Shown: positions 4,646 to 33,858, counted from the stretch's first letter. The stretch: DNA of 64,000 bases from Kiritimatiellia bacterium (GCA_051884805.1 JBJEWA010000030.1:238-64237), one strand, 5' to 3'. Numbers and translations: made by a program. The notes: generated by a model from the sequence alone, not told the origin.

Positions 4646-4653
4646 GCGGGCTC

Positions 4654-4842: not shown

Positions 4843-4853
4843 TGCCGACCCCC

Positions 4854-14296: not shown

Positions 14297-14584
14297 TTAC
14301 TTCTCCACGACGCCAAGCAGATCCTCCTCGCGGACGAGCTGCAGCTTCTTGTCGCCGATCTTGACTTCGGTGCCGCCGTACTTCGGGAGGAGGACCGTGT
14401 CGCCGCTCTTCACGTCGAACTTGACCTCCTTGCCGTCCTTGTCGAGCTTCTTGCCGACGGCGATGACCTTGCCCTGCATGGGCTTTTCCTTCGCGGAATC
14501 GGGGATGATGATGCCGCCGACGGTCTGTTCCTTCTCTTCGATCGGCTCGACGAGAACGCGATCACCCAGGGGACGAATGTTCAT
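14297..14584 (-). CDS. groS: co-chaperonin GroES
   Basis: [14 protein letters not shown]...[13 protein letters not shown]. Confidence 0.97.
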
Positions 14585-14638
14585 TTGTCTTTCTTCCTTT
14601 CGTTTGTCGGTTGTCCGTTGTTTGCAATACGTTTTCGC

Positions 14639-16755: not shown

Positions 16756-17691
16756 TCACCGCCCGCCGATCGCCTGCACGGCCGTCATCGCGACCGTGTT
16801 GACGATGTCCTCGACCGAGCATCCGCGCGAAAGGTCGTTGCAGGGCCTATCCAGCCCCTGCAGGACGGCGAAGCAGTTCGCGCCGCCGATGCGCTGGGTG
16901 AGCTTGTAGCCGATGTTCCCGGCCTGGAGGTCGGGGAAGATCAGCACGTTGGCGCGCCCGCCGACCGGACTGCCGGGCGCCTTGGCCGCAGCCACCCCGG
17001 GCACCAGCGCCGCATCCAGCTGCAGTTCGCCGTCAAGCGTCAGCCCGGGCGCCAGCTCGTGCGCAATCCGCGTCGCCGCCTGCACCTTCGCGACCAGCTC
17101 GTGGCTCGCGCTCCCCTTGGTCGAGAAGGACAGCATCGCCACGCGCGGCTCGTCGATGCCGCACAAGGTGCGCGCCGTCTCGGCCGCCGCCACGGCGATG
17201 TGCGCCAGCTCCTCGGCGGTGGGACAAGGATTCACCACGCAGTCCGCATAGACCAGCAGGCCGTTTTCGCCGAACGACGCGTTCGGACACTCCATCAGGA
17301 AGCTGGATGAGACGAGCTTCATGCCCGGTCTGGTCTTGATTATCTGCAGGGCGGGACGCAGCATGTCGCCCGTCGAATGGACGGCGCCCGAGACGAGGCC
17401 GTCCGCCTCGCCGAGCTTGACCATCATCATCCCGTAGTACATCGGATCGGCGACCAGCTTGGCCGCGCCCTCGGGCGTCAGGCCCTTGGCCTTGCGCAGC
17501 TCGTAGAGCGCCGCCGCATAGCGCTCGGCGTTCGCGCCGACCGTCGACGGCGTCAGCAGGACCGGCTCGGCCAGGCCTTCCCGACGAACGATCTCCGCCG
17601 CCGCGACCGTTCGCGGCTCATCGCCCTCGGGCAGGACGATGCGCTTCAGGTTCTCCCGGGCCTTCGCCCGGATCGTGTCAATCAAACTCAT
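16756..17691 (-). CDS. ptb: phosphate butyryl/acetyltransferase (short Pta/Ptb type)
   Basis: [24 protein letters not shown] and CNDLSRG motifs. Adjacent to butyrate kinase. Confidence 0.8.
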
Positions 17692-18775
17692 GGAATCCCT
17701 CCCAGACGTCCCTGCCGCTGTAACGCTGCGGCGTCAACTCCCCGCGCAAGACCTTCAGGACGGGCAACGCCATCGCCTTCTGCTCCATCTCGCCCGGATA
17801 GACCGAAATCGGCGCGATGAAGCCGCAGCGCGCGCGAATGCCCTCGATGACGTCGTCAAAGCGCATGAGCCCGCCTGTCAGGAGAATGGCGTCGACCTTG
17901 CCGGCGAGCACCGCGCCCATCGCGCCGATCATCTTGGCGACGCCGTAGATCATCGTCTGCCAGACGAGCGTCGCCTTGCGATCGCCCTGCTCCACAAGCG
18001 CATGAATCGCGTCGGAGTTGGACGTCCCCAGCAGGTCGACGAAGCCGCCCGCGCGCGTGCAGCGCAGCCGCACGGCGTCCGCGCCGTGCTTCTCGACGTA
18101 GTCGAGCAGCTGCAGGACCGGCACCGAGCCGATGCGCGTCGGCGTGTAGGCGCCCTCGCCGTCCGCGCCCATGTTGCCGTCCACCATCCGGCCGTGATCA
18201 TGCGCGGCGACGGTGATGCCGCCGTCGATGTGCGCGACGATGAAGTTGCAGTCGGCGTACGTCTTCCCGAGCTTCGCCGCATGGAATTCGGCGACCGCCT
18301 TCTGGTTGAGAACGTGCGAATGCGAGGTGCGGTAGATGCCGCGAATGCCCGTCAGCCGCGCGAGGTCGCCGAACTCGTCGACGTTCGTCGGATTGAGCGT
18401 GAAGGCCGGCTTCGAGTATCGGCACGCGAACTCCCACGCCAGCATCACCCCGAGCTTCGCGGGATGCTCCGACCCGCCGACCCCGGCGACGGTGTCGTCG
18501 TAGAGCTTCTGGTCGACGACCGTCACGCCGCCCGGCTGCGTACGGGCGCTGCCCCCGCGCCCGACGAAAGCGTCAATCGACTCGGGCGCAACGCCCTCCT
18601 CCGCCAGCATCTGCAGGATGACGTCGCGGCGAAACGGCTGCTGGTCGTTTACGTGCGCAAACGCCAGCAGGACCGAGGCATCGTGAAAGAGATTGCGTTC
18701 GAACGCCACGCGTTCGTCTTCGAACAGGCTCACCTTGGTGGAAGTCGAGCCCGGATTTATGACCAGTATCCTCAT
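17678..18775 (-). CDS. buk: butyrate kinase
   Basis: The internal ATG gives [25 protein letters not shown]-fold motifs are present. Overlaps the ptb start by 14 nt. Confidence 0.85.
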
Positions 18776-21119: not shown

Positions 21120-21959
21120 CTAAAGCGCGGCCTCCGTCCAGGCGAGATCCGCCAGCGCGTTCTTCGCCTCCCGCACGAGCCGCGCGTCGGAGGTTTCCTT
21201 CAGCGACGCGCTCTTCCGCAGGACGGAGCGGACGAGCGCCAGAAACTTCTCCCGCTTCTGCCCGTCGCGCGGACCGAAGGTCGGCGCGTCCTTGGCGCGT
21301 TTCGCAAAGGCGACAAGCTCGGCGACCTTCTTCACGTCCGGAATGCGGGCGAGTTCCCGTTCCCGCTCGGCGTAGGCCTTCGCCTCCCCGGGGAGCTTCC
21401 GCTTGAAGTCGGCCAGCCGGTTGTAGGCGCGCGCCGGCAGGTTCTCCAGTTCATAGTCGAGGAAGCGCCGCCACTGCTTCGGGCTTTTCGGGGCGTCCAT
21501 GTCGGTCAGCGCCGTAACGACCGCCTGGGTGGCGTTCCGCTCGTCATGCCCGAGATAGACGACCCGGCCGGTCTCGTCGACGACGTAGAGCAACGGCAGG
21601 CGGCCGGTGTGCGGCTCGCCCGCGCCCAGGCCGGCGTCCGCATAAAGCGGGAAGCTGACGCCCTCCCCCGCGGTGGGCAGGCGGAGGGAGCCGCCCGCCG
21701 CGTCGCAGTCCAGCGGTGCGCCGAGCATGACAAACTGCTTGTTCTTGAAGCTCTGCCAGACTTCCTCCAGCCGCTCCGCCAGCTTCCAGCCCGCCGGATC
21801 GCCGGCGCACCAGTGCGCGACCAGCACGACCTTTCCCTGCAGGTAGCCCGCGCTCGCCTTCCGCCCGCCGAGGGCGTGCGCGGCATCCAGATTCCGCCAC
21901 TCCACCGCCGCAGGCGCGGAAAGCGTCCAGACCGTCAACAGCAGCCACAATGTCTTCAT
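21120..21959 (-). CDS. secreted thioredoxin-fold-like hypothetical protein
   Basis: Signal MKTLWLLLTVWTLSAPAA. The start is uncertain: an alternative ATG lies at 22019, and the track start at 22034 sits inside a -10 box. Confidence 0.5.
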   Translation of the reverse strand: MKTLWLLLTVWTLSAPAAVEWRNLDAAHALGGRKASAGYLQGKVVLVAHWCAGDPAGWKLAERLEEVWQSFKNKQFVMLGAPLDCDAAGGSLRLPTAGEGVSFPLYADAGLGAGEPHTGRLPLLYVVDETGRVVYLGHDERNATQAVVTALTDMDAPKSPKQWRRFLDYELENLPARAYNRLADFKRKLPGEAKAYAERERELARIPDVKKVAELVAFAKRAKDAPTFGPRDGQKREKFLALVRSVLRKSASLKETSDARLVREAKNALADLAWTEAAL

Positions 21960-22032
21960 CTTGCGCAAACGTGTCTCATCCCGAAGCCGGCGACAGCCAC
22001 ACCGCCCGGGCGCCACCATCGACTTGCGGGAC

Positions 22033-22041
22033 ATTATAGCA
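22033..22041 (-). promoter_or_regulatory. extended -10 box TGCTATAAT
   Basis: Minus strand reads TGCTATAATG. The final ATG is the ORF-track start, which is therefore unlikely to be used. Confidence 0.45.
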
Positions 22042-22221
22042 TAATCACGGCTGGCAAGGAATCACGGCTCGCAATCGGACGCACGGGCGCACCGAGAATC
22101 TTACGCAAGCTTTTACGCTTTCTTGGGGGCTCTTTCCCGCTCACCTGTACGGTTCCATAGAATGTCGCCGCAACCCTTGATATGATGGCCAAACCATAGA
22201 TTCGCTCCGCATAAAAGCCCT

Positions 22222-22249
22222 AACGGATAGGGGCGAACGGATAGGGGCG
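22222..22249. repeat. perfect tandem direct repeat, 2 x 14 bp AACGGATAGGGGCG
   Basis: Read directly. It contains CGGATAG at 22224-22230 and 22238-22244. Confidence 0.95.
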
Positions 22250-22264
22250 CAAAGGGGCCATCTG

Positions 22265-22301
22265 CTGTGTTCGCACAGGATTTTTTTTTTTTTTCTTTTT
22301 T
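22265..22301 (+). terminator. short UUCG hairpin followed by T14-C-T6 (plus-strand orientation)
   Basis: CTGTGttcgCACAG, then GGA, then T14 C T6. Lies 20 nt beyond the helicase stop. Confidence 0.35.
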
Positions 22302-22321
22302 GTAAGCTTGCACTATGAAGC

Positions 22322-25300
22322 TCATACGATGCCAGATTCCTTCAACAGGGAGAAAGCGATTTCGAGGTATCTGCGGGCCTTGGCGGTCAAGGTTTGCCAG
22401 CCAAACAACCGAATCGTCTCGCGGTAAAGTTCATCTTGATGGCAGCCTCCAAGATCCGTCAGAATCTCCACCATTGCATTCATCAGTTCTTCCGGCGGGA
22501 TTTCCTCGATGGACCGCTTGCTATTCGGATCCTGCGAAGGCACGCGATAATCATGATACTCTGCCACCGCAGCTTCCTTCGGCCAGTAGACCTTTCCCGT
22601 TTCATGCTCGGTAACAACAACATCCGCAGGAACACAGGTGTCAAAAACACGTTGTACGCCCTCAGTCATGCGGGACAGGCCCCACGCCTTGCTGACACGT
22701 CGGCGAACAACGGTTTCGTAAATTGGCCACTCCTGTTTCACGACCTCTCCAACCATCTGCGAAATCCGTTGGCGGGAAGACGCTTCATAAAAGTAATCGT
22801 GAAGGTAGATTGACGGGCTTTGCCAGACAACGTACTGCTTATGGCGCGGACGCACTGCATCTGCAGGCATAGGCGCATTCTCCGCAGCCATGTGAGACTC
22901 GCCGCCGTCGGGGGCGCTCTCGGCCGCCTTCTCCAGCGCTGGTTCTTCTCGCGCCTGCTGAATGAGTTCAAGCAGATGCGATTCTGCGCGTTTGCGGTCA
23001 TATGCCCAATCAACGCTCCACACTCGACACATATGCCAACCGAGTCCGTTTAGCACGGCAGTTCGATTGACATCACGATCCTGCGCGGTAAACTGCTCGG
23101 CATAAGACCGCCCGTCGCATTCAATGCCCATCAGATATTCGCATGGGTTTTCGGGAGCTTTGACTGCGACGTCAATGCGGTACTCCGAACAACCGACGTC
23201 ACGCTCGACCTCATATCCGTTGCTTTCCAGGAAATGCGCGACAACGGAACCAAAATCATCCGCCGCCCGCTTCACCGCGCTTTCGCCCGGCCCAGCCGAA
23301 CCGCGTTCGGCGTATTCGAGGAACGCCTTCAAGTGACCGGCGCCGACAGCCCTGGTTCGACCACCTTCACCCGCATCGATGTCCCTGCCATGAATTGACG
23401 CGAAGACTATCACCTGCTCTCTGGCACGGGTAACGGCAACATTCAGCCTCCGCTCTCCGCCAGCCAGATTGAGCGGTCCGAAATTCATGGTGAACTTGCC
23501 GTTTTCGTCTGGCGCATACCCGACCGAGAAGAGAATCACGTCGCTCTCGTCGCCTTGGACGTTCTCAAGGTTCTTGACGAAATACGCGCCCTCGCCCTCT
23601 TCGGGCAGACGCTTCTCAAGTATCGGATCCGCGCTGCGTCGCTCTTCAAGCAATGTGCGAATGAGTTTCTGTTGCGGTTGGCTAAACGTCACGATTCCAA
23701 TGGAGCGCTGTTTGTAATCCGCTTTCCTGACTTCCGCACAGATATAATCGACCAGAGCTTCGGCCTCCACAGTATTTACGCGCGACCCTCGTCCGTTGCG
23801 CGCGAAAACGCCGTTCTTCACAAACTCAAATTTAACTCCCAGACGCGCCGAGTTACAGGCCGCAGGGAATGTGTACAGCTTGTTCGAGTAGTAGTGTTCG
23901 TTGCTGAACGCGATAAGTGCTTCGTGCCGACTACGATAATGCCAATTGAGATAGGTTGAATAGACACCCGCCACAAGGCACTCGTCAAGGATGCTCTCTT
24001 GATCTGAAATGGACTCGTCATCCGCGTCCGCGTCTTCGATGTCGCCCTTTTGGAAGAAACTTGTCGGCGGCATCTGCTTTGGATCGCCCACCACAATCAG
24101 CTGCTTCCCTCGCGCAATCACCCCAATGGCATCCCAGACGGGAATTTGAGATGCTTCGTCAAAAACAATCAGATCGAACGGAGCCGTGTCCACTGGCAAG
24201 TATTGGGCGACCGACAACGGACTCATCAGGAAGCAGGGCTTGAGCATCGGAATAAGTGTGCGCGACTCGGCAAGCATCTGTCGGACGGCTTTTTGCCGCG
24301 TCTTCTTTTCGCATTCGCGCTTGAGCATCCCCAATTCCGACCCTTCGGGACACGGGCCGCTTCTCCGTCTCGGCAATGTCGCCGCCAACCTCGCAAACAC
24401 AACCCGCTTCGCGAGTGTCGTGTACTTTCGGTCAAGTTCCCGGAATCGCTCAATCCGTTCTTCCTGCGTCAATCCGGTGAATTCGGACAAAATCTTGTCT
24501 TGAGACAGAATCATCTCCAGCATTTTCGACGCATATGAAGCATCGAAAAGTCCTCCGACATCCAGGCAACCGTCGTCGTTCGCCATCAGATAGTCCGCGA
24601 ACACCCCCATGCCGAGTTCTCGCACGCGCGCCAGTGCCGACCGACACCGAATGACATTGCGAAGGTCGGCTATGTTCTCGACGAAAGAACGACACGTCGA
24701 CACAAGTTCGGGCAAATTGGCTGGCAGCAAGGCCACGTCGACAAATTCGTCCAGAGCAGAGACGAGTTCCTTTAATTCCTTGTCTCGGGAAATCGCCTGT
24801 TCGAAATCATCACGGATGTCTGCCGCAATCTCAATGGTGTCGTCAATTGAACCGCCAGCCTGTTCAGCATACTGCGACTCAATCGTCAAAAGCTCCCGGA
24901 TCTTTGGCAGGTCGGCGGCGAGTCCGGCAGCGGTGAGTTTTCCTCCGCCGAGCTTCACAATTGAGGACAGTTCCGCAACCAATGCCCTGTCTTTGAAGAA
25001 TCTGAAGACGAAGAACGATTGAGCGTTGGCAACGAGCCGACTCTCAACCGAATCGACATCAACCTCACGCAGCTTCTCAATTCTGTAACGCGAAAGCTCT
25101 CCCGCCAATTTCGCATGCGCATCGACCAGCGAGGCCAATTTCTGAAACACCGCCGGTTCGGCCAATCCGCATTGGGGTTGGAAACGGCTCGGCATCCGCG
25201 ACGCCGACCGCAATCGCCGGATAACATCCAGCGCCGCATTAACGGCATCGGCATTGTAATCCTCGACAAGTCCTATCTTGCAATACGCCTGCCGCAATGC

Positions 25301-27976
25301 CTCAAGGGCGTTCTCGGCAGCGATCGCAACCTTTTCAGTTGCCGTCTTCAGTTGACGCTCAAAAACGGGGGACCACGTCGTCGTTCTCAATTCTGGCGTC
25401 ACCTTGAGCGCGATTTCCGACGCCGAGCGAAGATGTGACGACAAATCCAAGACGCTCTGACGCGAATCCCTGTAGGCGTCTCTGCTCTGTTCGAGACAGT
25501 TTACGGAAACAAGTTCAGGCTGAGAATTCCTGTCGGACTGAATAATCCTCGTAAAACAATCGTAGGCCGTCAGCCCATTCGGGTACGAAGCATGGAGATC
25601 CTTGATGTAGCCGTTTAGCTCGCTCCGGCATTTCTCGAAGTCTGCGACAACCTGATTCCATTCGCCAGGGGCAGGCGTTTCCGGCACGTTCAACGCCTCT
25701 TTGATTTGCGCGTAGAACCTGCCTTTTTCCGTTTTGTTGGAATGCAGCTCAAGGCAGAATGGCGTCAGGCCGATCCTATCAAGGCGATCCTTCACGACCT
25801 CAAGCGCAGCCTTCTTCTCGGATACGAACAAGACACGACGCCCCAAGGCAAGATTATGGGCGATGATGTTCGTGATGGTTTGCGACTTACCGGTTCCAGG
25901 AGGACCATGCAGGACAAACGATTTGCCCATCTCGGAATACAGGACAGCGGCCAACTGGGACGAATCATAACTTACCGGGCAAAAAAGCTCTCCGGGGTTG
26001 AAATGCTGCGCGACCTCATCAGCCGGGAACACATTGATCCCGTCGTCGAAACAGCCGCCGCCGCCGATCAGATGATTCACAAGCGGACTTGCCTTGAGAT
26101 CGTCCACCCGTTCGGTCATGTCTTTCCACATGACAAACTTTCCAAAAGAGAAGCACCCGATGTAAGCATCATCGCGGACTTCCCATCCTTCCATCTCCTT
26201 CACCGCCTGACGAAAGATCTGAAGGATCAGCGCAACATCCACGCCAGAATCGTCCGTCGGCAATGGATCAAGCCCTGGCAACGTCAAGTTAAACTGTGCG
26301 CGGAGAAATTCGATTAAGGTCGCATTGATCGTCGTGTCCTCGTCAAGCCGAAACAGCTTAACGCCCTCGGCCATTGACGCGCGAGCCAATCGGACGGGAA
26401 CAAGCAGGATCGGCGCACGATAACTCTTTCGATTCGACCCGGTTCCGGGCTCTACCCACTGAAGCGTGCCGATAGACAGGAAGAGCGTGTTGACGCCGGA
26501 TTCCTCCAATTCGGTTTTTGCATCGTGTAAAAGATCCGAGAGCCGCTTTCTCACTTCGCTCTGCGGCATCATGACGCAAAGGCGGTGATGCGTAAGCTCT
26601 GCATCGACAATGTTAGAACATTGCTCCCGCGTGAGGCGATTGTTCAGCAGATCATCCAGCGCCTTCTCCCCCATTGACTCGGCAATGGAACGAATGGTAA
26701 TCGTTTCGTTCGCCGCTATCTGATCTTCAAGGCCGGAAACGTTTGCACAGACAAGGGGAATGATCTGCCGGGACGATTTCGGGATGTTCAGCAAACGATT
26801 ACGCGCTGAAAAATCGAGAAGCTTCTGCGTCCACCGGTCGATTCGTCCTTGCGTACCCTGTGCTTCCGGAAGCGCCGAAAGATCTATGCTTTCCTTGAGG
26901 TTCCTGACGAGGCCATTCCCCTCGGCGTCTACTTGACGTCCCGCGGCCATATATGCTGCCGAGCCGCCCCCGACGCCGCACGTGATCGGCCTTATGCCGC
27001 TTTCGCGACTGCGAACGACATCAATGGCGCACGTAAAAGACTCATCGTCCGAAAGGTGCTCTCGCCCGCATCGTTCCGCTTCGTTGAACGGCGTATCCGT
27101 TGTGACCTTGGTTGTCTCAATGGCGACAAATTCGTCAAGATCCGCGCGCTTGCGCAGCGCCTGCAGATTCCAGGTGACAACGTCCTCGAACATCTCCTCA
27201 ATCAGGTGACATCCCACATAGCAATGCCCCTTGACGAGTATCAGCACAGGATGCAGTTCGCACTTTTCCATGACTGATGCCATGAGCAGCGATGTTTCGA
27301 TGCACGTGCCGAGTTTGAATTTCTCAACCGTGTCGGCCAGACGGATCTTCTGTCCCGGAACGCCGAACGATGACGGCGGATTGCAATAGCGTATTCCCGT
27401 TTTCTGAATGGCCGAATAAATCGCCGCGCAGATTTCCAGCACCCGTTTCTTATCGCCTTGATACCCCTCCAAAGACGATGCGCCAGTTGACAGTTCGATT
27501 TCATGCGCAGCCTCCGCCTGAAGACGATTCACGAAATCTGCGTTCGGCTGCGCATAGGCTGACAACAACTCGGCATATGGACGGATTCCCAGCCATTGGT
27601 CGACCGCCAGCACCGTCATCGGAAAATCTTGGCGAAACAGCTCTCGTCCCGACGAGGAAACGATCATTGAGACGTGACCCGTGATCGGGTCGCCCGACAC
27701 TTCGGCGATGCGTCGCGCGTTTAGAAGAATCCCTACATTCGCTTTCCCGGCAGTCCCATGCGGGGGAATTTCCTTGAACGCAACCTCTCCGGGGATGACA
27801 AGCTCTTCGTCCGATGCAAAAGCGCAAACGACATCCCTTAGCGGATCATCGGTCGTGTTGTTGATGCGCAGATTCTGTATCGCAGGAAGGCCATTCTGGA
27901 CAAGTGCCAGATTAACATATTCCAAGACATCGACACCCGATATTGGCGTTTGGGACTGCGTCTGCGCATCTGCCAT
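22322..27976 (-). CDS. 1884-aa multidomain protein: transglutaminase/papain-like N-domain, DUF4011-type region, Upf1-like SF1 helicase, PD-(D/E)xK (DUF559/Vsr-like) nuclease, DUF3320-type C-terminus (Hhe-like defence helicase architecture)
   Basis: Motifs seen: GTCIETS...KGHCYVG...FVAIETT; LHGPPGTGKSQT (Walker A); LIVFDEASQ; VGDPKQMPP; NWHYRSRHEALI; LNVAVTRAREQV; YRIDVAV...MGIECDG...RDVNR...GWHMCRVWSVDW. Confidence 0.85.
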   Translation of the reverse strand: MADAQTQSQTPISGVDVLEYVNLALVQNGLPAIQNLRINNTTDDPLRDVVCAFASDEELVIPGEVAFKEIPPHGTAGKANVGILLNARRIAEVSGDPITGHVSMIVSSSGRELFRQDFPMTVLAVDQWLGIRPYAELLSAYAQPNADFVNRLQAEAAHEIELSTGASSLEGYQGDKKRVLEICAAIYSAIQKTGIRYCNPPSSFGVPGQKIRLADTVEKFKLGTCIETSLLMASVMEKCELHPVLILVKGHCYVGCHLIEEMFEDVVTWNLQALRKRADLDEFVAIETTKVTTDTPFNEAERCGREHLSDDESFTCAIDVVRSRESGIRPITCGVGGGSAAYMAAGRQVDAEGNGLVRNLKESIDLSALPEAQGTQGRIDRWTQKLLDFSARNRLLNIPKSSRQIIPLVCANVSGLEDQIAANETITIRSIAESMGEKALDDLLNNRLTREQCSNIVDAELTHHRLCVMMPQSEVRKRLSDLLHDAKTELEESGVNTLFLSIGTLQWVEPGTGSNRKSYRAPILLVPVRLARASMAEGVKLFRLDEDTTINATLIEFLRAQFNLTLPGLDPLPTDDSGVDVALILQIFRQAVKEMEGWEVRDDAYIGCFSFGKFVMWKDMTERVDDLKASPLVNHLIGGGGCFDDGINVFPADEVAQHFNPGELFCPVSYDSSQLAAVLYSEMGKSFVLHGPPGTGKSQTITNIIAHNLALGRRVLFVSEKKAALEVVKDRLDRIGLTPFCLELHSNKTEKGRFYAQIKEALNVPETPAPGEWNQVVADFEKCRSELNGYIKDLHASYPNGLTAYDCFTRIIQSDRNSQPELVSVNCLEQSRDAYRDSRQSVLDLSSHLRSASEIALKVTPELRTTTWSPVFERQLKTATEKVAIAAENALEALRQAYCKIGLVEDYNADAVNAALDVIRRLRSASRMPSRFQPQCGLAEPAVFQKLASLVDAHAKLAGELSRYRIEKLREVDVDSVESRLVANAQSFFVFRFFKDRALVAELSSIVKLGGGKLTAAGLAADLPKIRELLTIESQYAEQAGGSIDDTIEIAADIRDDFEQAISRDKELKELVSALDEFVDVALLPANLPELVSTCRSFVENIADLRNVIRCRSALARVRELGMGVFADYLMANDDGCLDVGGLFDASYASKMLEMILSQDKILSEFTGLTQEERIERFRELDRKYTTLAKRVVFARLAATLPRRRSGPCPEGSELGMLKRECEKKTRQKAVRQMLAESRTLIPMLKPCFLMSPLSVAQYLPVDTAPFDLIVFDEASQIPVWDAIGVIARGKQLIVVGDPKQMPPTSFFQKGDIEDADADDESISDQESILDECLVAGVYSTYLNWHYRSRHEALIAFSNEHYYSNKLYTFPAACNSARLGVKFEFVKNGVFARNGRGSRVNTVEAEALVDYICAEVRKADYKQRSIGIVTFSQPQQKLIRTLLEERRSADPILEKRLPEEGEGAYFVKNLENVQGDESDVILFSVGYAPDENGKFTMNFGPLNLAGGERRLNVAVTRAREQVIVFASIHGRDIDAGEGGRTRAVGAGHLKAFLEYAERGSAGPGESAVKRAADDFGSVVAHFLESNGYEVERDVGCSEYRIDVAVKAPENPCEYLMGIECDGRSYAEQFTAQDRDVNRTAVLNGLGWHMCRVWSVDWAYDRKRAESHLLELIQQAREEPALEKAAESAPDGGESHMAAENAPMPADAVRPRHKQYVVWQSPSIYLHDYFYEASSRQRISQMVGEVVKQEWPIYETVVRRRVSKAWGLSRMTEGVQRVFDTCVPADVVVTEHETGKVYWPKEAAVAEYHDYRVPSQDPNSKRSIEEIPPEELMNAMVEILTDLGGCHQDELYRETIRLFGWQTLTAKARRYLEIAFSLLKESGIV

Positions 27977-27980
27977 TTCT

Positions 27981-29003
27981 CTACTCCCGTTTGGTCGTCT
28001 TCATCTCCGATCGCATTTCGGATATTTGTGCGATCAATGCCTTGAGCATCTCCCCTTGCTCACGCAGAAGCGCATCATGCTCAATGTCCTTCTCGCGCCG
28101 CAAGGCAAGTTCGCTTTCGTGCCGACCATCGCTTTTAGCCCTTGCTTCGGCTTCAGCGGCCAATCCTTCGTGGCCGATCTGCTCCATAAGGCCAGACGCG
28201 ATAATGCCTGAAGGAACCGCTACTGCCGCCACGCCCAAAAGTGCAATAAACGCACCGATAATCCGTCCCGCCATTGTGACAGGATAGATGTCTCCGTATC
28301 CAACGGTGGTCAAGGTAACTACCGCCCACCACAATCCGCTAAACGCATTTTTGAATACGGCAGGCTGCGCATCATGCTCAACAGTGTAAATAAGCAACGA
28401 CGAAACAAGCATGAGCAGCAACACCAGAATCACCGAACCGATCAGTTCGCGCCGTTTCGCCCTGACGACATTCCCAATTGATTTGATGGCATCAAAATAA
28501 CGATTCAATTTCAGGATGCGCAAAAAGCGCACAAGGCGGAGTGCTCTCATTCCAAACATCGCCCCCGGAACGAACATCGGCAGCCAGAACGGGAGAATGG
28601 CAAGCAAATCTATGATCGCCAAGGAAGAGCAGACGTAGCGAACTCGCGACATCAGCCTTGAACTTCTCGGGTAGAGACAATCTGCCGTCCAAACACGAAG
28701 CAGATATTCGACGGTAAATAGCAATGAAACCCCATAGTCGAAGATGGTAATAGCCCTCTGCCACACTGGCGGCAGCGCCAAGGTCGCCACATAAACTGAA
28801 ATCACGCTGCCAAGAATAAGCATGGTGATGAAAGCATCAAAAAACCGGCTTACTCGCGATGTTCCACGATCAGGCTGAATGATCTCGAAAATCGTACGCT
28901 TCATCAGGGCATAGCCGCGCAAAGGAGCATTAGGCAAAACACCAGATTTCGCGATGTTTTTCGCAGCACATCCTTCGACATTATTAGCCATAATTGACGA
29001 CAT
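27981..29003 (-). CDS. voltage-gated-type (6TM) K+ channel with C-terminal coiled coil
   Basis: S4-like MRALRLVRFLRILKLNRY. Selectivity filter TLTTVGYGD. The stop is 4 nt before the helicase ATG. The true start may be the ATG at 28991, because the 29003 ATG lies inside a TATAAT box. Confidence 0.85.
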   Translation of the reverse strand: MSSIMANNVEGCAAKNIAKSGVLPNAPLRGYALMKRTIFEIIQPDRGTSRVSRFFDAFITMLILGSVISVYVATLALPPVWQRAITIFDYGVSLLFTVEYLLRVWTADCLYPRSSRLMSRVRYVCSSLAIIDLLAILPFWLPMFVPGAMFGMRALRLVRFLRILKLNRYFDAIKSIGNVVRAKRRELIGSVILVLLLMLVSSLLIYTVEHDAQPAVFKNAFSGLWWAVVTLTTVGYGDIYPVTMAGRIIGAFIALLGVAAVAVPSGIIASGLMEQIGHEGLAAEAEARAKSDGRHESELALRREKDIEHDALLREQGEMLKALIAQISEMRSEMKTTKRE

Positions 29004-29010
29004 TATACCA
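29002..29010 (-). promoter_or_regulatory. extended -10 box TGGTATAAT overlapping the first ATG of the channel ORF
   Basis: Minus strand reads TGGTATAATGTCGTCAATTATGGC. Confidence 0.45.
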
Positions 29011-29112
29011 TATTTCAGAATGTAACGCCGCCGATCGAGTGATCATCAGCGTTTTGGACACGGCAACGACAAGAAGCACGCCGCGGCAAATCCCGACGGG
29101 CGAAACTTAGCG

Positions 29113-29135
29113 ACTATCCGCCTGTTTACTATCCG
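29113..29135. repeat. direct doublet ACTATCCG-N7-ACTATCCG, the inverse of the 22222-22249 doublet
   Basis: CTATCCG at 29114-29120 and 29129-29135 (15-bp period) is the reverse complement of CGGATAG. Confidence 0.9.
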
Positions 29136-29175
29136 AAAGCTCGTTTACTTCTGGACGCAACGACGCGCCGTGCGC

Positions 29176-30153
29176 CTACGGCGCGGAATCCGCCGGGATC
29201 GAGGCGACGACTGCCTCGATCTCGGCCAGTGTGCGGACGGCGTTGAACTTCGCCCGCAGCGCAGCCGCGCCCGGACGGCCGTTGAAATAGCGGAAGAGAT
29301 GCACGTGCGCCTTGACGGACGCAAAGCCGTCCGGCGACGGAATGTGGTCGGCGGGGTAGCGCTCCGCCAGCAGGTCGCGGAACTGCAGCAGATAGGCGAG
29401 ATGGCGGCCGAAGAACCGCAGGTCCGGAAGTCCGGGGGCGCGGCGTTCCCTGAGCGCGCGGAAGATCGCGGGATTGGCGAGCGCGGCACGGCCGACCATG
29501 ACGGCGGCGACGCCGGTTCGCGCCATCGCCGCGGCGGTCGGCGCATCGACGACGGAGCCGTTCCCGGTCACGGGAATCTTCGCGCGCCGCACGATCTCGG
29601 CCAGCGTCTCCAGGTCGACGGGACCGCCGTGCAGCTGCGACGTATGGCGCGCATGGACAATCAGCCCCTTCGCGCCGGCGCTCTCGGCGGCGTCCAGAAG
29701 CTCGAAGACGTTCGTCCGCCGTGGATGCGGTCCGAGGCGGGTCTTCAGCGTCACCGGCAGGGAGGTGTGTTCGGTCATCGCCCTGAGCAGGCGGCCGACC
29801 TTCGCCGGATCCTCGATCAGCTTCGCGCCCGCCCCTTCCCGCGTGACCTTGGCCATCGGACATCCGGCGTTCAGGTTGAGTTCGACAAAGGGATGGGGCT
29901 TGCGCGACAGGACCTCGCGCTCGATGAGGTCGGCCGCCGCCGCGACGTCCGTCTCCTTCGCGCCGAAGAGCTGCAGCGCGACCGGCCCTTCGCCGGGCAT
30001 CGTCTCCATCAGGTGGCGGGTCGGGGAGGAGCCGTGGGCCAGGCCGGCGGCGGAGACCATCTCGGTGTAGGTCAGGTCCGCCCCGCCCTCGAAGCACAGG
30101 CGGCGGAACGGCGCGTCGGTAAAGCCAGCCAGCGGCGCGAGGACGTATCTCAT
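29176..30153 (-). CDS. dus: tRNA-dihydrouridine synthase
   Basis: The internal ATG gives MRYVLAPLAGFTDAPFRRLC...LNAGCP...HARH. ATGA overlap with the upstream stop. Confidence 0.85.
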   Translation of the reverse strand: MRYVLAPLAGFTDAPFRRLCFEGGADLTYTEMVSAAGLAHGSSPTRHLMETMPGEGPVALQLFGAKETDVAAAADLIEREVLSRKPHPFVELNLNAGCPMAKVTREGAGAKLIEDPAKVGRLLRAMTEHTSLPVTLKTRLGPHPRRTNVFELLDAAESAGAKGLIVHARHTSQLHGGPVDLETLAEIVRRAKIPVTGNGSVVDAPTAAAMARTGVAAVMVGRAALANPAIFRALRERRAPGLPDLRFFGRHLAYLLQFRDLLAERYPADHIPSPDGFASVKAHVHLFRYFNGRPGAAALRAKFNAVRTLAEIEAVVASIPADSAP

Positions 30154-31724
30154 TGCCGCGCCGCCGCCTTTGCCGGCTGCGCGACCGGCGACGGCAGCAC
30201 CGTCAGGAGCGGGTCGGAATACGGCGCTTGCGGATCCATGCGGGCGAACGAGACGTAGCTCGGCGCCCCCCACCCGGTCTTCGCGTTGCGCCCGAAGACG
30301 GAGATGTCCACGCGGTTCGTCGGCGACATGGCCCGGCGGTCGATGACGATCCGCGCGGCATTCGGCGCCGTCCGTTCGATCTTGACGTCAACGCCCTGTC
30401 CGTGCGTCTGCACGAACGCGTACTCCTCGGCGCCTTTCGCCGTGATGTCGAACGTGCGCACCGTATCCTCCGCCCGCAGGACGAACGCCCAGGCGAAGAC
30501 GGTGCCGTAAGTCAGCTCGGGCTGGGTCGAGGGCGTCTTCACCGGTCCGGGAGTGACGGAAACCGCCACCAGCGGCGGCACGGCGTCCGCCGTCAGCGCC
30601 CGCGCCGCCGCCACCAGCCGGTTGGTCTCGACGCCGCCGGGCGGCAGGGCCGTCGGGTGCGCCCGTGCGCTCGTGTAGTCCGCCTCCGAGCGGACGCCCC
30701 TGAGCGACTTGCGAATCAGCGTCTGCACCGTCGGCGCCAGCATTCCGCGCGCGACAATCGTTTCCTTGACCTTGCGGTCGAGCGACCGGGAGACTTCCAG
30801 CGCCGCCCGCAGGTACGGCAGGTCCGACCAGCTCCGCCCGGCCGTCGTCATCCAGTACGGCGCAATCGAGGCGAAGACGTCGCCGTTGGTTCCGACCGGC
30901 GCGGTGTCGGCGTTGGACGGGAAGACCCACGTCTGGTTCGAGAGATAGAGCTTCGCCATCAGGCCGAGCCGGGGGGACTCCCCCGTCAGCAACGCGCGCG
31001 AAAGCGACCGCCAGTACGGACCGTGCGTCATCGCCAGCGACGCGTTGCCGAAGGCAGGATAGGGAAAGACGATGTTCGGAATGCTCATGTGCATCATCCG
31101 GTTCGTTCCCTCGCTGTCCAGCGTCACCCGCGTCAGCCCCGGAAACTCGTCGCGCCGCAGGGCCGAATGGTTGTTGTCGCGGTTCATGTAGAGGTCGCCG
31201 ACGCTCCGCCCGGACGAGCCGGCGACCAGCTGCATCTTCGCCACGAAACAGCCGACGTCGAAGTCCCACCCGAGATTCTGCTCGCCCAGCGCGATCGGCT
31301 TGCCGAAGACGCCGGTCGCACTGATCGCCGAGTGCGGACCCGACAGCAGCGGCCGGGTCTGCATGAACGTGGCGTATTCGAGCAGTTCGCGGAACCGCCG
31401 CTCCTTGGACAGCCGCCGGAGATCCGTGTCCTTTTCGATGGCCTCCCGGTCGCGGAAGCCGAAGTCAATCGCCTTTTCGAGTTCGTCGAGCGCCTCGTCC
31501 GCGCGCTGGTCGAAATAGGCGAGCGAACAGGCCAGGTTGTAGTGCCAGGTCGGATCTTCCGGCAGCAGCTCCACGCCCCGGCGGCACGTCGCTTCCATCG
31601 TCGCCGTGTCGCCGGACCTGAGCGCCTCCAGAAACTGCCGGCGCAGCCGGTCGTGCGTCTGATGCCGCGCCGGATAGTCCCAGATGGACAGGACGGCCAG
31701 GACTGCAAGCAAGATCGCGTTCAT
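30150..31724 (-). CDS. membrane-anchored hypothetical protein with TPR-like N-terminal region
   Basis: N-terminal TM MNAILLAVLAVLSIW, then a helical-repeat-like segment. No family recognised for the remaining 400 aa or so. Confidence 0.6.
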   Translation of the reverse strand: MNAILLAVLAVLSIWDYPARHQTHDRLRRQFLEALRSGDTATMEATCRRGVELLPEDPTWHYNLACSLAYFDQRADEALDELEKAIDFGFRDREAIEKDTDLRRLSKERRFRELLEYATFMQTRPLLSGPHSAISATGVFGKPIALGEQNLGWDFDVGCFVAKMQLVAGSSGRSVGDLYMNRDNNHSALRRDEFPGLTRVTLDSEGTNRMMHMSIPNIVFPYPAFGNASLAMTHGPYWRSLSRALLTGESPRLGLMAKLYLSNQTWVFPSNADTAPVGTNGDVFASIAPYWMTTAGRSWSDLPYLRAALEVSRSLDRKVKETIVARGMLAPTVQTLIRKSLRGVRSEADYTSARAHPTALPPGGVETNRLVAAARALTADAVPPLVAVSVTPGPVKTPSTQPELTYGTVFAWAFVLRAEDTVRTFDITAKGAEEYAFVQTHGQGVDVKIERTAPNAARIVIDRRAMSPTNRVDISVFGRNAKTGWGAPSYVSFARMDPQAPYSDPLLTVLPSPVAQPAKAAARQ

Positions 31725-33115
31725 CGGCGAAAGCTCATCCAGCCGGGAAGTTTGACCTGCCTGGCCTCGCGGCTCTGGTTGGTGGAAACGGTCTCCGCGC
31801 TGCCGATCGACGGCGATTCCAGGGACGCCAGACGGGCCAGCAGCGCCTGCTGCTTCGTCGCCTGCTGCCGGCGAAGCTCCTCGTTCAGCTGGCGCTCGGC
31901 CAGCAGCTCCTTCTCGCGGACGGACAGCCGCTCGGTCAGGGCCACGACCTCCTGCCGGAGCTGGGTCACGTCCTTGAGCCCGGCCTCCGTCCGCAGGTTC
32001 TCGGCCTTGCTCTGACGCAACTTCTCGGTCAGCTCGCGAATCTTCGCCTCGCTGTCGAGCCGCGCCCGGTCGGACGCCCGGCGGAATTCCTCGAACTCCT
32101 TGCGGAGCTGCGCCGTCCGCGGATCCTCCGGACGGGCCAGCAGCGCCCGGCGCGTCATGTCCTCGATGTTGGCGCCCGAACGCTTGAGCAGTTCGTGACG
32201 GCGCTCGACCAGGCGGTCGGCCCGGTCCGCATAGCGCTTGCGCATGTCCTCAAACTCGCGCTTCTCGACTTCGATGACGCGGGCCAGCTCCTCCGCCTCG
32301 CCGGTGATGATCGAATGGACCGCCGCCTGGATTTCGGCCACCTCGCTGGCCGCCTGCGGCAGCCGCCGCAGCTCGTCCTCCAGATGCTTCACCTGCTCGA
32401 CGTACTTGCCCTCGCGGTCGGCGGCCTCCTGCAGTGCGGCCTCGCTCTTGTCAAGCCGCTCCTGCACCGCAGCGGCTTCCGCCCGCAGCGCGTTCTCCCG
32501 CCCGACTGCCGCCTTTGCCGCCTCCGACGCATTGCGGGAGGATGCGGTCAGGCATTCCTGCAGCTTCGCCGCATGGGCACGCTCTTCGGCCAGCAGCCCC
32601 TCAAGTTCCCTGACGCGCGTCTCGTCGATGACGACCTTCTCCACGATCCGCTCGACGGGGACTTCGACGCGGACTTCCTTTTCGACGATCTTCTCGACCG
32701 GGACTTCCTTGATCACCTCCCGTTCGACGACCCGCTCAACGGGGGCCTCGACCCGGGCCGCCCCCTCGTCGGAGGCAGGCGCTGGCGCGGGAGACGCCGA
32801 CGACTCGGACGGCTCCTCCGGGAACGGCTCCCGCGTCTCGACGATCGTCGCCGTCGGCGGCAGCCGCCCGCTCGCCAGCAGCGCCTCGGCCGCGGCCCGG
32901 TTGAACGGACCGCGCGGATTGCCGTCCCCGATGTCGATCGAAAAGCGCATGTCGAGAAACGGAACGTCTTCGACCCGCCGCCATTCGATGTTGTCGTCGG
33001 AGACCTCCTGCCCGGGCTGGATGCGCCCGAGCTTCGCCCACGCGACGAGCTTCGCCGCCGTCTCGGGGCCAAACGTCTCGTCCTGCGTCCGCAGGTACCA
33101 TGTGGCTTCGTTCAT
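31721..33115 (-). CDS. GYF_2 (DUF4339)-like domain protein with VEK repeats and a long coiled coil
   Basis: WYLRTQDETFGPETAAKLVAWAKLGRIQP...W, two GYF-like modules, VERVVEREVIKEVPVEKIVEKEVRVEVPVERIVEKVV, then about 300 aa of heptad-rich sequence. Confidence 0.7.
   Translation of the reverse strand: MNEATWYLRTQDETFGPETAAKLVAWAKLGRIQPGQEVSDDNIEWRRVEDVPFLDMRFSIDIGDGNPRGPFNRAAAEALLASGRLPPTATIVETREPFPEEPSESSASPAPAPASDEGAARVEAPVERVVEREVIKEVPVEKIVEKEVRVEVPVERIVEKVVIDETRVRELEGLLAEERAHAAKLQECLTASSRNASEAAKAAVGRENALRAEAAAVQERLDKSEAALQEAADREGKYVEQVKHLEDELRRLPQAASEVAEIQAAVHSIITGEAEELARVIEVEKREFEDMRKRYADRADRLVERRHELLKRSGANIEDMTRRALLARPEDPRTAQLRKEFEEFRRASDRARLDSEAKIRELTEKLRQSKAENLRTEAGLKDVTQLRQEVVALTERLSVREKELLAERQLNEELRRQQATKQQALLARLASLESPSIGSAETVSTNQSREARQVKLPGWMSFRR
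32630..32752. repeat. coding repeat block (VE[KR][IV]VEK units), near-identical at DNA level to part of 33304-33537
   Basis: 32641-32710 aligns nearly base for base with 33401-33470. Confidence 0.8.
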
Positions 33116-33858
33116 CGCTTCTTGTCCCCAAACAGATTAAAGCCCAGACCGCCCCGCCGAGCGTGGCGAAGCTCGTTTCTCGCCGCCGCCTCCAGGGCCG
33201 CGAGCCGGTTGCGCCCGACCCCCCGGAACGGAGACTCCGGCGACTTCGGCGGCATCTCGGCGACCGGCTCGACGACTTCGGCCACGACGATCTCCGTCCG
33301 CGCCGGCGGCGGGACCTCGACGATCTTCTCCACGATCTTCTCGACCGGGACCTCCTTGACGACGACCTTCTCGACGACTTTCTCGACGACCTTTTCCACA
33401 ATCCGCTCGACCGGGACTTCGACGCGGACTTCCTTTTCGACGATCTTTTCGACTGGAACTTCCTTGACGACGACCTTCTCCACGATCTTCTCGACCGGAA
33501 CCTCGACGCGGACTTCCTTTTCGACGATCTTCTCCACGGACGGCGGATCCTGATCGACCGCAAGCTCGTGCCGGCGATAGACCTTCGCCGTCGCCGGAAG
33601 CTCGCCCGACTGGGAAAGCCGGATGACGACGGCGCGGTTGAACGGACCGAAGACCTTGCCCGGCTCCAGCTCGACCAGCCAGGACATCCCGAGCTCCGGC
33701 ATCGTCTGCGCCGGCATCCAGGACTTCCGGTCGCGCGAAACGAAGGAGGCCGGCTCGATCCGGCCGTCTTGCGCCCACAGGGACATCGCGTCGACGCCCG
33801 CCGGCCCGTAGACCTTGCCGTCAGCCGTGCGAACGTACCAAACCTTCTCGCCAGTCAT
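33112..33858 (-). CDS. GYF_2 (DUF4339)-like domain protein with about 78 aa of EVPVEKIVEK tandem repeats
   Basis: WYVRTADGKVYGPAGVDAMSLWAQDGRI, a second module ELEPGKVFGPFNRAVV, then VEKIVEKEVRVEVPVEKIVEKVVVKEVP... repeats. Confidence 0.7.
   Translation of the reverse strand: MTGEKVWYVRTADGKVYGPAGVDAMSLWAQDGRIEPASFVSRDRKSWMPAQTMPELGMSWLVELEPGKVFGPFNRAVVIRLSQSGELPATAKVYRRHELAVDQDPPSVEKIVEKEVRVEVPVEKIVEKVVVKEVPVEKIVEKEVRVEVPVERIVEKVVEKVVEKVVVKEVPVEKIVEKIVEVPPPARTEIVVAEVVEPVAEMPPKSPESPFRGVGRNRLAALEAAARNELRHARRGGLGFNLFGDKKR
33304..33537. repeat. in-frame tandem repeats (14-aa period, about 42 nt) encoding VPVEKIVEKEVRVE-type units
   Basis: Read from both the translation and the DNA. Confidence 0.85.

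What the first reader, a model, noticed from the sequence alone, without database searches (positions are those of the whole stretch)
22222..29135. Inverted doublets of CGGATAG bracket the low-G+C island
- The left end has a perfect tandem AACGGATAGGGGCG x2 (CGGATAG at 22224 and 22238, 14-bp period).
- The right end has ACTATCCG-N7-ACTATCCG (CTATCCG at 29114 and 29129, 15-bp period). This is the reverse complement, with nearly the same spacing.
- Both doublets sit where G+C changes, outside the two coding regions.
- Four copies of a 7-mer in two short intergenic stretches, in mirrored orientation, are unlikely by chance.

The pattern looks like terminal inverted repeats with paired protein-binding sites. 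That would make this a non-autonomous element mobilised in trans, since there is no transposase or integrase inside. Alternatively the doublets could be paired operator sites that loop the island. I could not identify a target-site duplication.
Basis: seen in the sequence. Interest (0 to 1): 0.7.

Follow-up and report, generated by a model that had tools for sequence, protein, structure and literature searches.

The report
Motif pairs edging an inserted defence cassette
A 7-kb foreign block carrying a likely anti-phage gene pair was inserted between two core genes of a gut Kiritimatiellae bacterium, and the paired CGGATAG motifs near its two ends are real and belong to the insert, but they lack the features of transposon ends and their role is unproven.

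Summary
**Observation: confirmed.**
- CGGATAG doublets lie at 22224–22244 (+) and 29114–29135 (−). They are the only two in 64 kb.
- Chance probability is about 2×10⁻⁴.

**What the island is.**
- It is a true insertion of about 7.06 kb, roughly 22084–29152.
- Six empty-site contigs from three related lineages (Dus 67–86% identical) have dus followed 9–76 bp later by the next core gene. None has the motif there.
- The cargo is a conserved operon: an Ion_trans channel plus an 1884-aa Hhe-like DUF4011 helicase–nuclease, with its own promoter.

**Where the doublets sit.**
- They are in orphan non-coding DNA inside the insert, 17 nt from the right boundary and about 140 nt from the left, both pointing inward.
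- Only the 7-mer is shared. Spacers and flanks differ.

**What is missing.**
- There is no extended inverted repeat and no abutting target duplication.
- There is no third copy of the motif.
- There is no recombinase anywhere in the window.
- Five other copies of the module (59–68% identical) lack any equivalent.

**Best reading (about 0.35).** They are end-proximal protein-recognition sites left by the recombination system that delivered the cassette, which is now recombinase-less.

**Rivals.** Operator or insulator sites, functionless slippage, or an RNA motif.

**Rating.** Modest interest.

The parts
22222..22249 (+). Left doublet: a perfect 14-bp tandem AACGGATAGGGGCG ×2, with CGGATAG cores at 22224–22230 and 22238–22244. 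It lies about 140 nt inside the left boundary of the insert.
29113..29135 (-). Right doublet: on the − strand CGGATAGT-N7-CGGATAGT with a 15-bp period (cores 29114–29120 and 29129–29135). It is interleaved with a second repeated word, GTTTACT (+ strand, 29124–29130 and 29143–29149). It lies 17 nt inside the right boundary and 40 nt after the dus stop.
27981..29003 (-). Cargo gene 1: a voltage-gated-type ion channel (Ion_trans and Ion_trans_2). The likely true start is the ATG at 28991, almost leaderless behind the promoter.
   Evidence: the called gene in L057 is 336 aa
22322..27976 (-). Cargo gene 2: an 1884-aa Hhe-like protein with DUF4011, SF1 helicase (AAA_11/AAA_12), MTES_1575 nuclease and DUF3320 domains. 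It has a 370-aa N-terminal extension with no Pfam match.
   Evidence: (PDC-S37 1177 bits, Hhe 530 bits)
29002..29010 (-). Cassette promoter TGGTATAAT, an extended −10 of the lineage's consensus type.
22260..22301 (+). Inward-facing intrinsic terminator on the + strand: stem CTGTG/CACAG extended by ATC/GAT, then T13CT6. It starts 15 nt after the left doublet.
22218..22232 (-). Weak − strand hairpin CCCTATCCGTTAGGG followed by CTTTTAT, formed by one copy of the left doublet. It is a possible terminator of the cassette operon.
22077..22083 (+). GGACGCA, the left copy of a 7-bp direct repeat at the compositional boundary of the insert. It is a candidate crossover or duplication site and is not significant on its own.
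29153..29159 (+). GGACGCA, the right copy of the same 7-bp direct repeat, between the dus stop (29176) and the right doublet.
22030..22050 (-). Host-derived promoter of the next core gene (ATTATGCTATAATGTCCCGCA). It aligns with the empty-site junction of L062 and marks recognisable host DNA on the left side.
29176..30153 (-). dus (tRNA-dihydrouridine synthase), the right flanking core gene. Its C-terminus is homologous to that of relatives through to the stop.
21120..21959 (-). Left flanking core gene, a secreted protein of about 279 aa with no Pfam match. It lies directly after dus in the empty-site genomes.

Best explanation
**What the block is.**
- The block of about 7.06 kb (roughly 22084–29152) is a horizontally acquired two-gene defence-type cassette.
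- It carries an Ion_trans channel and an Hhe-like DUF4011 helicase–nuclease, with its own TGnTATAAT promoter.
- It was inserted between dus and the next core gene.

**Where the doublets are.**
- They are part of the inserted DNA.
- They lie in orphan non-coding DNA just inside its two ends, 17 nt on the right and about 140 nt on the left, both pointing inward.
- Only a 7-bp core is kept among three independent instances, while spacers and flanks differ. That pattern fits a protein-recognition motif better than a duplicated or palindromic sequence.

**Most likely role.**
- They are end-proximal recombinase-binding sites of whatever delivered the block.
- Two known types fit: the paired arm-type sites of tyrosine integrases, and the sub-terminal multi-site ends of Mu/Tn7/Tn402-type transposons.
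- The cassette is now a recombinase-less remnant, either immobile or dependent on an enzyme encoded elsewhere.

**Shown versus inferred.**
- Shown: the insertion, the position of the motifs, their non-randomness, their association with the island, and the absence of a recombinase.
- Inferred: protein binding and a role in recombination.
For: - **Empty sites:** six contigs from three related lineages (Dus 67–86% identical: L001; L058/L061/L064; L062/L063) have dus followed 9–76 bp later by the next gene.
- **Motif absent there:** the motif is missing within ±300 nt of those junctions and of the L070 variant junction.
- **Motif rare elsewhere:** no CGGATAG doublet occurs in about 0.9 Mb of related loci.
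- **Not chance:** P is about 2×10⁻⁴.
- **Boundaries:** the compositional boundaries at about 22090 and 29150 lie close to the doublets, and a 7-bp direct repeat GGACGCA sits at both.
- **Host DNA resumes:** recognisable host sequence starts again at about 22050.
- **Core-only conservation:** only the 7-mer core is shared.
- **Variable site:** the DNA downstream of dus differs among close relatives.
- **Background knowledge, not tested here:** unequal distances of paired sites from the two ends are usual for integrase arm-type sites and for Tn7-type ends.
Against: - There is no recombinase in the island or anywhere in the 64-kb window.
- No inverted repeat extends beyond 7 bp, and no target duplication abuts the doublets.
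- The GGACGCA repeat is at chance level, with about 0.4 expected in those stretches.
- Five other copies of the module lack any such repeats.
- The motif is strictly two plus two, with no further degenerate sites.
- The left pair is a perfect 14-bp duplication that simple slippage could have made.
- The rest of the genome could not be scanned.
Confidence: 0.35

Rival explanations
1. The doublets are operator or insulator sites. A DNA-binding protein encoded elsewhere binds both, either looping or silencing the cassette or blocking read-through into a potentially toxic operon.
For: - Core-only conservation fits a binding motif.
- Both sites face inward, and each is followed 14–15 nt later by a hairpin: strong on the left, weak on the right.
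- Shielding a channel-plus-nuclease operon from outside transcription would make sense.
Against: - The island has no regulator gene.
- The sites lie about 100–125 bp upstream of the cassette's −10 element and downstream of the operon, not over a promoter.
- The motif is absent from five other copies of the module and from relatives' loci.
- Four perfect cores arising in place in a block that still has foreign composition is unlikely.
Confidence: 0.22
2. The doublets are the terminal inverted repeats of a non-autonomous DDE transposon mobilised in trans.
For: - The motif copies are inverted at the two edges of a true insertion.
- Defence systems are common cargo of Tn7-like elements (PMC8649781, abstract listed).
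Against: - There is no terminal match beyond the 7-mer.
- There is no target duplication next to the doublets.
- The left doublet is about 140 nt inside the end.
- At 7 kb the block is far larger than a miniature element.
- There is no transposase in the window.
- Other module copies lack such ends.
Confidence: 0.08
3. The doublets have no function. Each arose by local slippage in junction DNA, and the shared 7-mer is a coincidence or a relic of one short sequence.
For: - The left pair is a perfect 14-bp tandem duplication.
- A further 17-bp imperfect tandem lies next to it at 22045–22078, and the right edge has interleaved partial repeats, so slippage is active here.
- Single-word 'inverted doublet' events are frequent in these genomes, 42 in about 0.9 Mb, although most are coding-periodic words.
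Against: - The local null gives about 2×10⁻⁴ for the same 7-mer doubling in both short stretches.
- The right pair keeps the core while its spacer and flanks differ, which slippage does not explain.
Confidence: 0.17
4. The motif acts in RNA. CGGAUAG pairs on inward-reading transcripts (the dus 3' UTR on the − strand, and a short + strand transcript ending at the T-run terminator) would bind an RNA-binding protein or tune termination.
For: - Both doublets lie on the strand read inward and precede hairpins.
- One left copy sits as ACGGA in the loop of a 5-bp hairpin.
- A promoter-like TAGAATGTCG lies about 65 nt upstream on the + strand.
Against: - There is no Rfam match.
- Folding is no better than shuffled sequence, with z-scores of −0.5 and +0.5.
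- The + strand promoter lacks the lineage's TGn element.
- The element is not conserved in relatives.
Confidence: 0.08
5. The inverted repeats are sites for site-specific inversion of the whole 6.9-kb segment, a form of phase variation. Repeat-armed inverted repeats seen in relatives suggest this possibility.
For: Related Kiritimatiellae loci carry inverted repeats whose arms are internal tandem repeats. They bracket promoter-like segments or defence-gene segments (L009, L016, L043, L068).
Against: - Those arms are near-perfect over 26–36 bp, whereas here only 7 bp match.
- The cassette carries its own promoter, so inversion would not switch it.
- There is no invertase in the window.
- Two independent samples show the same orientation at the right junction.
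Confidence: 0.05

Closest known systems
Integrase-less integrated elements (CIME-type remnants) with arm-type integrase sites, as in lambda or L5 attL/attR
   Same: - The insert lies next to the 3' end of a conserved gene.
- Short repeated protein-site pairs lie inside both ends, at unequal distances from the junctions.
- No recombinase is inside.
- A short direct repeat is possible at the two junctions.
   Different: - The candidate core repeat is only 7 bp and at chance level.
- No integrase was found anywhere in 64 kb.
- No second element with the same sites is known.
- Binding is untested.
Mu/Tn7/Tn402-type transposon ends, with several transposase-binding repeats in each end and the two ends inverted
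   Same: Direct repeats of one motif occur within each end, and the two ends are in mirrored orientation. Defence genes are the cargo.
   Different: - The conserved unit is 7–8 bp, not about 19–22 bp.
- No matching terminal sequence and no duplication abutting the doublets were seen; specific TG…CA termini and a 5-bp duplication were not searched for systematically.
- There are no tns or tni genes.
- There are only two sites per end.
Core-gene defence hotspots, where variable defence cargo sits between conserved flanking genes (for example cDHS1 in Pseudomonas aeruginosa, PMC10250203)
   Same: A defence-type cassette lies between conserved housekeeping genes. The content at this site differs among close relatives, and no mobility genes are present.
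   Different: Hotspots are defined by their flanking genes and need no repeats. Here a specific motif pair marks both ends of the insert.
Hhe single-gene defence system (PADLOC models Hhe and PDC-S37)
   Same: The cargo protein has the DUF4011, SF1 helicase, MTES_1575 nuclease and DUF3320 architecture. It scores 530 bits to Hhe and 1177 bits to PDC-S37.
   Different: - It is always preceded by an Ion_trans channel gene in this Kiritimatiellae clade.
- It carries a 370-aa N-terminal extension.
- A 47%-identical Victivallis homologue stands alone.
- Defence activity is untested.

Membership tests
Transposon with terminal inverted repeats (including a non-autonomous or MITE-like derivative) | Inverted repeats of about 10 bp or more at the very ends of the inserted DNA | tested here: not met
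   Inverted similarity between the two edges is limited to the 7-mer, and the best inverted local alignment is no better than shuffles. The left doublet lies about 140 nt inside the boundary.
Transposon with terminal inverted repeats (including a non-autonomous or MITE-like derivative) | Target-site duplication directly abutting the ends | tested here: not met
   No direct repeat lies next to the doublets. The only boundary repeat is GGACGCA, 17 nt and 140 nt outside them, and it is at chance level.
Transposon with terminal inverted repeats (including a non-autonomous or MITE-like derivative) | A cognate transposase, and further copies with the same ends, in the genome | not testable with these tools
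   There is no transposase in the 64-kb window.
Mu/Tn7/Tn402-type multi-site ends | Several roughly 19–22-bp transposase-binding repeats per end | tested here: not met
   Only 7–8 bp are conserved between sites, there are exactly two sites per end, and there are no degenerate extras.
Mu/Tn7/Tn402-type multi-site ends | TG…CA termini with a 5-bp target duplication | not tested
   No tool call addressed this. An informal reading of the two edges found no consistent TG…CA pair flanked by matching 5-mers.
Integrative element of a tyrosine integrase (attL/attR) | Identical core sequence as a direct repeat at both junctions | tested here: inconclusive
   GGACGCA at 22077–22083 and 29153–29159 coincides with both compositional boundaries. 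About 0.4 such matches are expected by chance, and it is absent from the empty sites.
Integrative element of a tyrosine integrase (attL/attR) | Repeated arm-type sites inside both ends | tested here: inconclusive
   The doublets have the right positions and pairing. Binding by an integrase cannot be tested here.
Integrative element of a tyrosine integrase (attL/attR) | Integrase gene at one end | tested here: not met
   The island has only two genes and neither is a recombinase. There is none in the window.
Invertible segment (inverton or shufflon) | Near-perfect inverted repeats, an invertase, and both orientations present in populations | tested here: not met
   The match is only 7 bp. There is no invertase in the window. 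Two samples show the same orientation at the right junction. Read-level data are not available.
Xer-dependent modules (dif or pdif-flanked) | 28-bp sites made of two 11-bp inverted arms around a 6-bp centre | tested here: not met
   The sites are direct doublets with 7–8-bp spacers and have no palindromic arms.
Known RNA families (Rfam) | A match to a covariance model, or an unusually stable fold | tested here: not met
   No match reaches gathering score in the window. Only noise appears in sensitive scans of the edges. Fold z-scores are −0.5 and +0.5.
Hhe / PDC-S37 defence protein (cargo) | DUF4011, SF1 helicase, MTES_1575 nuclease and DUF3320 in one giant protein, with a match to the PADLOC models | tested here: met
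   All domains score above the Pfam cut-offs. PDC-S37 scores 1177 bits and Hhe scores 530 bits. Anti-phage activity is not testable here.

The most novel reading that the evidence does not exclude
The doublets could be the ends of a previously undescribed kind of recombinase-less defence cassette in PVC-group gut bacteria, moved or flipped by an enzyme encoded elsewhere. They would belong to a wider habit seen in related Kiritimatiellae loci. There, inverted arms built from short tandem repeats bracket defence-gene segments: the half of an EcoRI-type methylase and a GmrSD-type nuclease in L016, and promoter-like segments in L009 and L043.
Probability: 0.1. Interest if true: 0.65.

Novelty: new member of a known kind. 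Interest (0 to 1): 0.3.

Why it matters
If the doublets are recombinase sites, they would mark how defence cassettes enter core-gene junctions in an uncultured gut and rumen phylum where almost nothing is known about mobile DNA. They would also give a search key for further cassettes.

As things stand, the solid result is more ordinary. A defence-type cassette was inserted at a variable site after dus, and it carries a small, private and unexplained motif pair.

The cargo may be the more useful lead. A voltage-gated-type channel gene is conserved next to an Hhe-like helicase–nuclease. This recalls the logic of Zorya and RexAB, where a membrane channel works with a nucleic-acid enzyme.

Tried and rejected
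**Known RNA families and small-RNA or 3'-UTR folds.** Nothing was found.

**Extended inverted or direct similarity between the two edges.**
- Only the 7-mer, the lineage promoter string and chance 7-mers are shared.
- The shared TATG[G/C]TATAATGTC is the lineage's promoter consensus, with 8 TGnTATAAT sites against 0.03 expected, so it is not an att site.

**An ancestral palindrome split by the insertion.** Rejected, because the spacers are not complementary.

**Uptake-sequence or Chi-like reading of the strand-biased single copies.** Rejected. The singles are coding, and their bias follows gene orientation in relatives too.

**DnaA box, RfaH ops and similar resemblances.** These were recalled from memory and noted as only partial on reading the motif. 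No tool test was run.

**Nucleotide relatives of the two orphan edge segments.** None were found in the fetched loci, plasmids (left edge) or phages (right edge).

**The 13-mer and 10-mer matches to a non-coding element in L003 and L009.** These led to a dispersed repeat and an unrelated inverted repeat, not to homology with the island edges.

**Module relatives.** None occur on viral contigs.

**Doublet strings in viral contigs.**
- The exact strings are absent.
- The generic doublet gives only scattered hits, as expected by chance.

**Exact-protein look-ups.** They first failed because of start-codon choice. With the right dus start they found only the same strain, with the island.
Full report
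**1.

- The left edge has a perfect 14-bp tandem, AACGGATAGGGGCG ×2, at 22222–22249.
- The right edge has ACTATCCG-N7-ACTATCCG at 29113–29135, the reverse complement with a 15-bp period.
- The pattern CGGATAG-N5–10-CGGATAG occurs exactly twice in the window and in no shuffle. Allowing two mismatches adds nothing above chance.
- I ran a local null on the two non-coding stretches. With the left stretch fixed and the right stretch dinucleotide-shuffled, a matching doublet appeared in 23 of 100,000 shuffles. With both shuffled it appeared in 3 of 20,000.
- The left pair is one duplication, so there are three independent instances of the core rather than four.
- CGGATAG singles are mildly enriched (14 against 4.8 expected). 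They lie in coding DNA, share no context, and follow gene orientation here and in relatives. I treat them as codon-usage background.

**2. The island is a real insertion**

*Composition and content*
- G+C falls from 0.65–0.70 to about 0.54 between 22.0 and 29.2 kb. This is the only such block in the window.
- GC3 is 0.56–0.62 for the two island genes and 0.85–0.94 for host genes.

*Host and empty sites*
- The host is an uncultured gut or rumen Kiritimatiellae bacterium.
- In L001, dus is followed after 9 bp by the homologue of the window's 304-aa gene, and then by the AMP-binding gene.
- The closest relatives in the large protein collection have 84–86% Dus identity. L058, L061 and L064 show the same junction with a 14-bp gap, and L062/L063 show it with 76 bp.
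- L070, another 86% relative, has a convergent response-regulator gene there instead. The site after dus is therefore variable.
- None of these seven junctions has the motif within ±300 nt.
- Two Logan contigs that encode the identical Dus protein are the same strain and carry the island.

*Boundaries*
- L062's junction aligns with the window's ATTATGCTATAATGTCCCGCA at 22030–22050. This is the promoter of the downstream core gene, so recognisable host DNA resumes there.
- The Dus C-terminus is homologous to that of relatives up to the stop at 29176.
- Fine G+C profiles place the boundaries at about 22090 and about 29150.
- A 7-bp direct repeat, GGACGCA, sits at both (22077–22083 and 29153–29159). 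By my own estimate about 0.4 such matches are expected by chance in those stretches, so it is only a candidate.
- On this map the insert is about 22084–29152. The right doublet starts 17 nt inside it and the left doublet about 140 nt inside it.

**3. What the insert carries**

- There are two minus-strand genes, 4 bp apart.
  - One is a 336–340-aa Ion_trans channel.
  - The other is an 1884-aa protein with DUF4011, SF1 helicase, MTES_1575 nuclease and DUF3320 domains.
- The large protein matches the PADLOC models PDC-S37 (1177 bits) and Hhe (530 bits). DUF4011 giants are annotated as Hhe in the literature (PMC11232893).
- A TGGTATAAT promoter lies just upstream of the channel gene's start. TGnTATAAT is this lineage's promoter consensus, with 8 sites against 0.03 expected, all in front of genes.
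- Downstream of the operon lies a strong inward-facing + strand terminator with a T13CT6 tail. There is also a weak − strand hairpin formed by one copy of the left doublet.
- The same channel-plus-giant pair occurs in at least five other genomic contexts at 59–68% identity: L034, L035, L065/L066, L068 and L069.
- A 47%-identical Victivallis homologue stands alone.

**4. What the doublets are not**

- Inverted similarity between the edges stops at the 7-mer. The spacers (GGGCGAA against TAAACAGG) and the flanks differ.
  - This argues against classical terminal inverted repeats.
  - It also argues against a split ancestral palindrome.
- No duplication abuts them.
- There are no extra degenerate copies at the edges and no exact copy inside the island.
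- No recombinase, integrase or transposase is encoded in the island or among the 36 window ORFs scanned against Pfam; the eight short ORFs left unscanned were not checked. The window is housekeeping (dnaK, groESL, rnpA–yidC, pta–ack, cmk, purE) plus glycan-degradation genes.
- None of the other module copies has an equivalent motif pair. The doublets are therefore not a conserved part of this module family.
- No Rfam family matches, and the folds are unremarkable.
- The orphan edge DNA has no nucleotide relatives in the fetched loci (both edges), plasmids (left edge) or phages (right edge).
- The module has no relatives on viral contigs, and neither exact doublet string occurs there. The generic doublet gives only scattered hits in viral contigs.

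**5. What they most likely are**

- The motif is non-random, is found only at the island, lies inside the foreign DNA near both of its ends, and is conserved only in its core.
- Four perfect cores are unlikely to have evolved in place in a block whose composition is still foreign. They probably arrived with it.
- A motif that arrives with a block and marks both of its ends fits a role in defining the block, that is, in recombination, better than a role in regulation.
- From background knowledge, unequal distances from the two ends and pairing of sites are usual for two kinds of element.
  - One is the arm-type sites of tyrosine integrases, such as lambda and L5.
  - The other is Tn7/Mu-type ends.
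- I therefore favour end-proximal recombinase sites of a now recombinase-less cassette, at about 0.35.
- The rivals are listed with their own evidence:
  - operator or insulator sites (0.22)
  - functionless slippage plus coincidence (0.17)
  - strict transposon inverted repeats (0.08)
  - an RNA motif (0.08)
  - an invertible segment (0.05)
- None of these could be decided with the sequence available, because the rest of the genome and the reads are out of reach.

**6. A comparative aside**

- Related Kiritimatiellae loci repeatedly show inverted repeats whose arms are themselves short tandem repeats.
  - L009 has a 27-bp pair that brackets about 150 bp of promoter-like DNA (arm starts 174 bp apart). 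L003 shares one arm and then diverges.
  - L016 has TTTAGCC(GCAAAGnnC)×3 arms around the low-G+C second half of an EcoRI-type methylase gene and around a GmrSD/HNH gene.
  - L043 has related arms around a promoter-like segment.
  - L068 has such arms around a 23S_rRNA_IVP gene.
- Those arms are near-perfect over 26–36 bp, unlike the window's. I treat them as context, not as the same element.

**7. Verdict**

- This is a new member of a known kind, namely a defence cassette in a variable core-gene junction with unexplained end motifs.
- Interest is modest at 0.3.
- The conserved pairing of the channel with the Hhe-like protein is the more promising lead.

Noticed in passing
window 22322–29003 (− strand); also L034, L035, L065/L066, L068, L069: An Ion_trans channel gene immediately precedes the Hhe-like DUF4011 helicase–nuclease in six different genomic contexts (59–68% identity). 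The giant has a 370-aa N-terminal extension with no Pfam match. A 47%-identical Victivallis homologue lacks the channel. The literature search found no description of this pairing. It recalls the logic of Zorya and RexAB (membrane channel plus nucleic-acid enzyme).
   Followed up: partly
window 11633, 12497, 22033, 29002, 33866, 36497, 44070, 63118: The extended −10 motif TGnTATAAT occurs 8 times against 0.03 expected, each time in front of a gene. It looks like the promoter consensus of this lineage, and several sites leave little or no leader before the start codon.
   Followed up: partly
window 22045–22078: An imperfect 17-bp tandem duplication (AATCACGGCTGGCAAGG / AATCACGGCTCGCAATC, 14 of 17 identical) covers the −35 region of the downstream core gene's promoter. 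It abuts the left boundary of the insert. L062 has a single copy.
   Followed up: partly
window 22260–22301: A strong + strand intrinsic terminator with a T13CT6 tail faces into the island right after the large gene's stop. No + strand gene is evident upstream. Only a weak promoter-like TAGAATGTCG lies at about 22158.
   Followed up: partly
L009 10024–10227; L003 11685: A 27-bp inverted repeat with one mismatch has arms that are direct doublets of CCACAGTA (13-bp period). It brackets about 150 bp of DNA containing a promoter-like TGTGATATACT (arm starts 174 bp apart), about 650 nt downstream of dus. L003 shares one arm and then diverges. It may be an invertible promoter or a small mobile element.
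   Followed up: partly
L016 2965–4880; L043 16896–17075: Inverted arms of the form TTTAGCC(GCAAAGnnC)×3 occur in two different genomes. In L016 one arm lies inside an EcoRI-type adenine methylase gene whose second half has low G+C. Two reverse arms bracket that half and a GmrSD/HNH gene. This looks like a phase-variable or cassette-swapping defence locus.
   Followed up: partly
L068 13726–14220: Inverted arrays of GTTTGAGG-type repeats bracket a 130-aa 23S_rRNA_IVP (four-helix-bundle) gene a short way downstream of that genome's copy of the module.
   Followed up: no
L009 9369–10020, with further copies at about 14300–14880 and 17375–17823; also L003 and L011: A non-coding stretch of about 450–650 nt downstream of dus is a dispersed repeat family (70–86% identical copies) in these Kiritimatiellae genomes.
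   Followed up: no
window 33316–33544: Nested 12-, 42- and 84-bp tandem repeats lie inside the coding region of a GYF_2-domain protein gene (33112–33858). A neighbouring paralogue lies at 31721–33115.
   Followed up: no
window 1733–6275: Two genes, a GH5 cellulase-like protein of 970 aa and an FGE-sulfatase-domain protein of 473 aa, have lower GC3 (0.73–0.77) than the rest of the host genes. This may be an older acquisition.
   Followed up: no
L034 7350–7487: After a methyltransferase-like fragment, an AT-rich piece of about 120 nt is flanked by direct repeats CTTGCCTATAA at the contig end, next to that genome's copy of the module. It may be a small inserted element.
   Followed up: no
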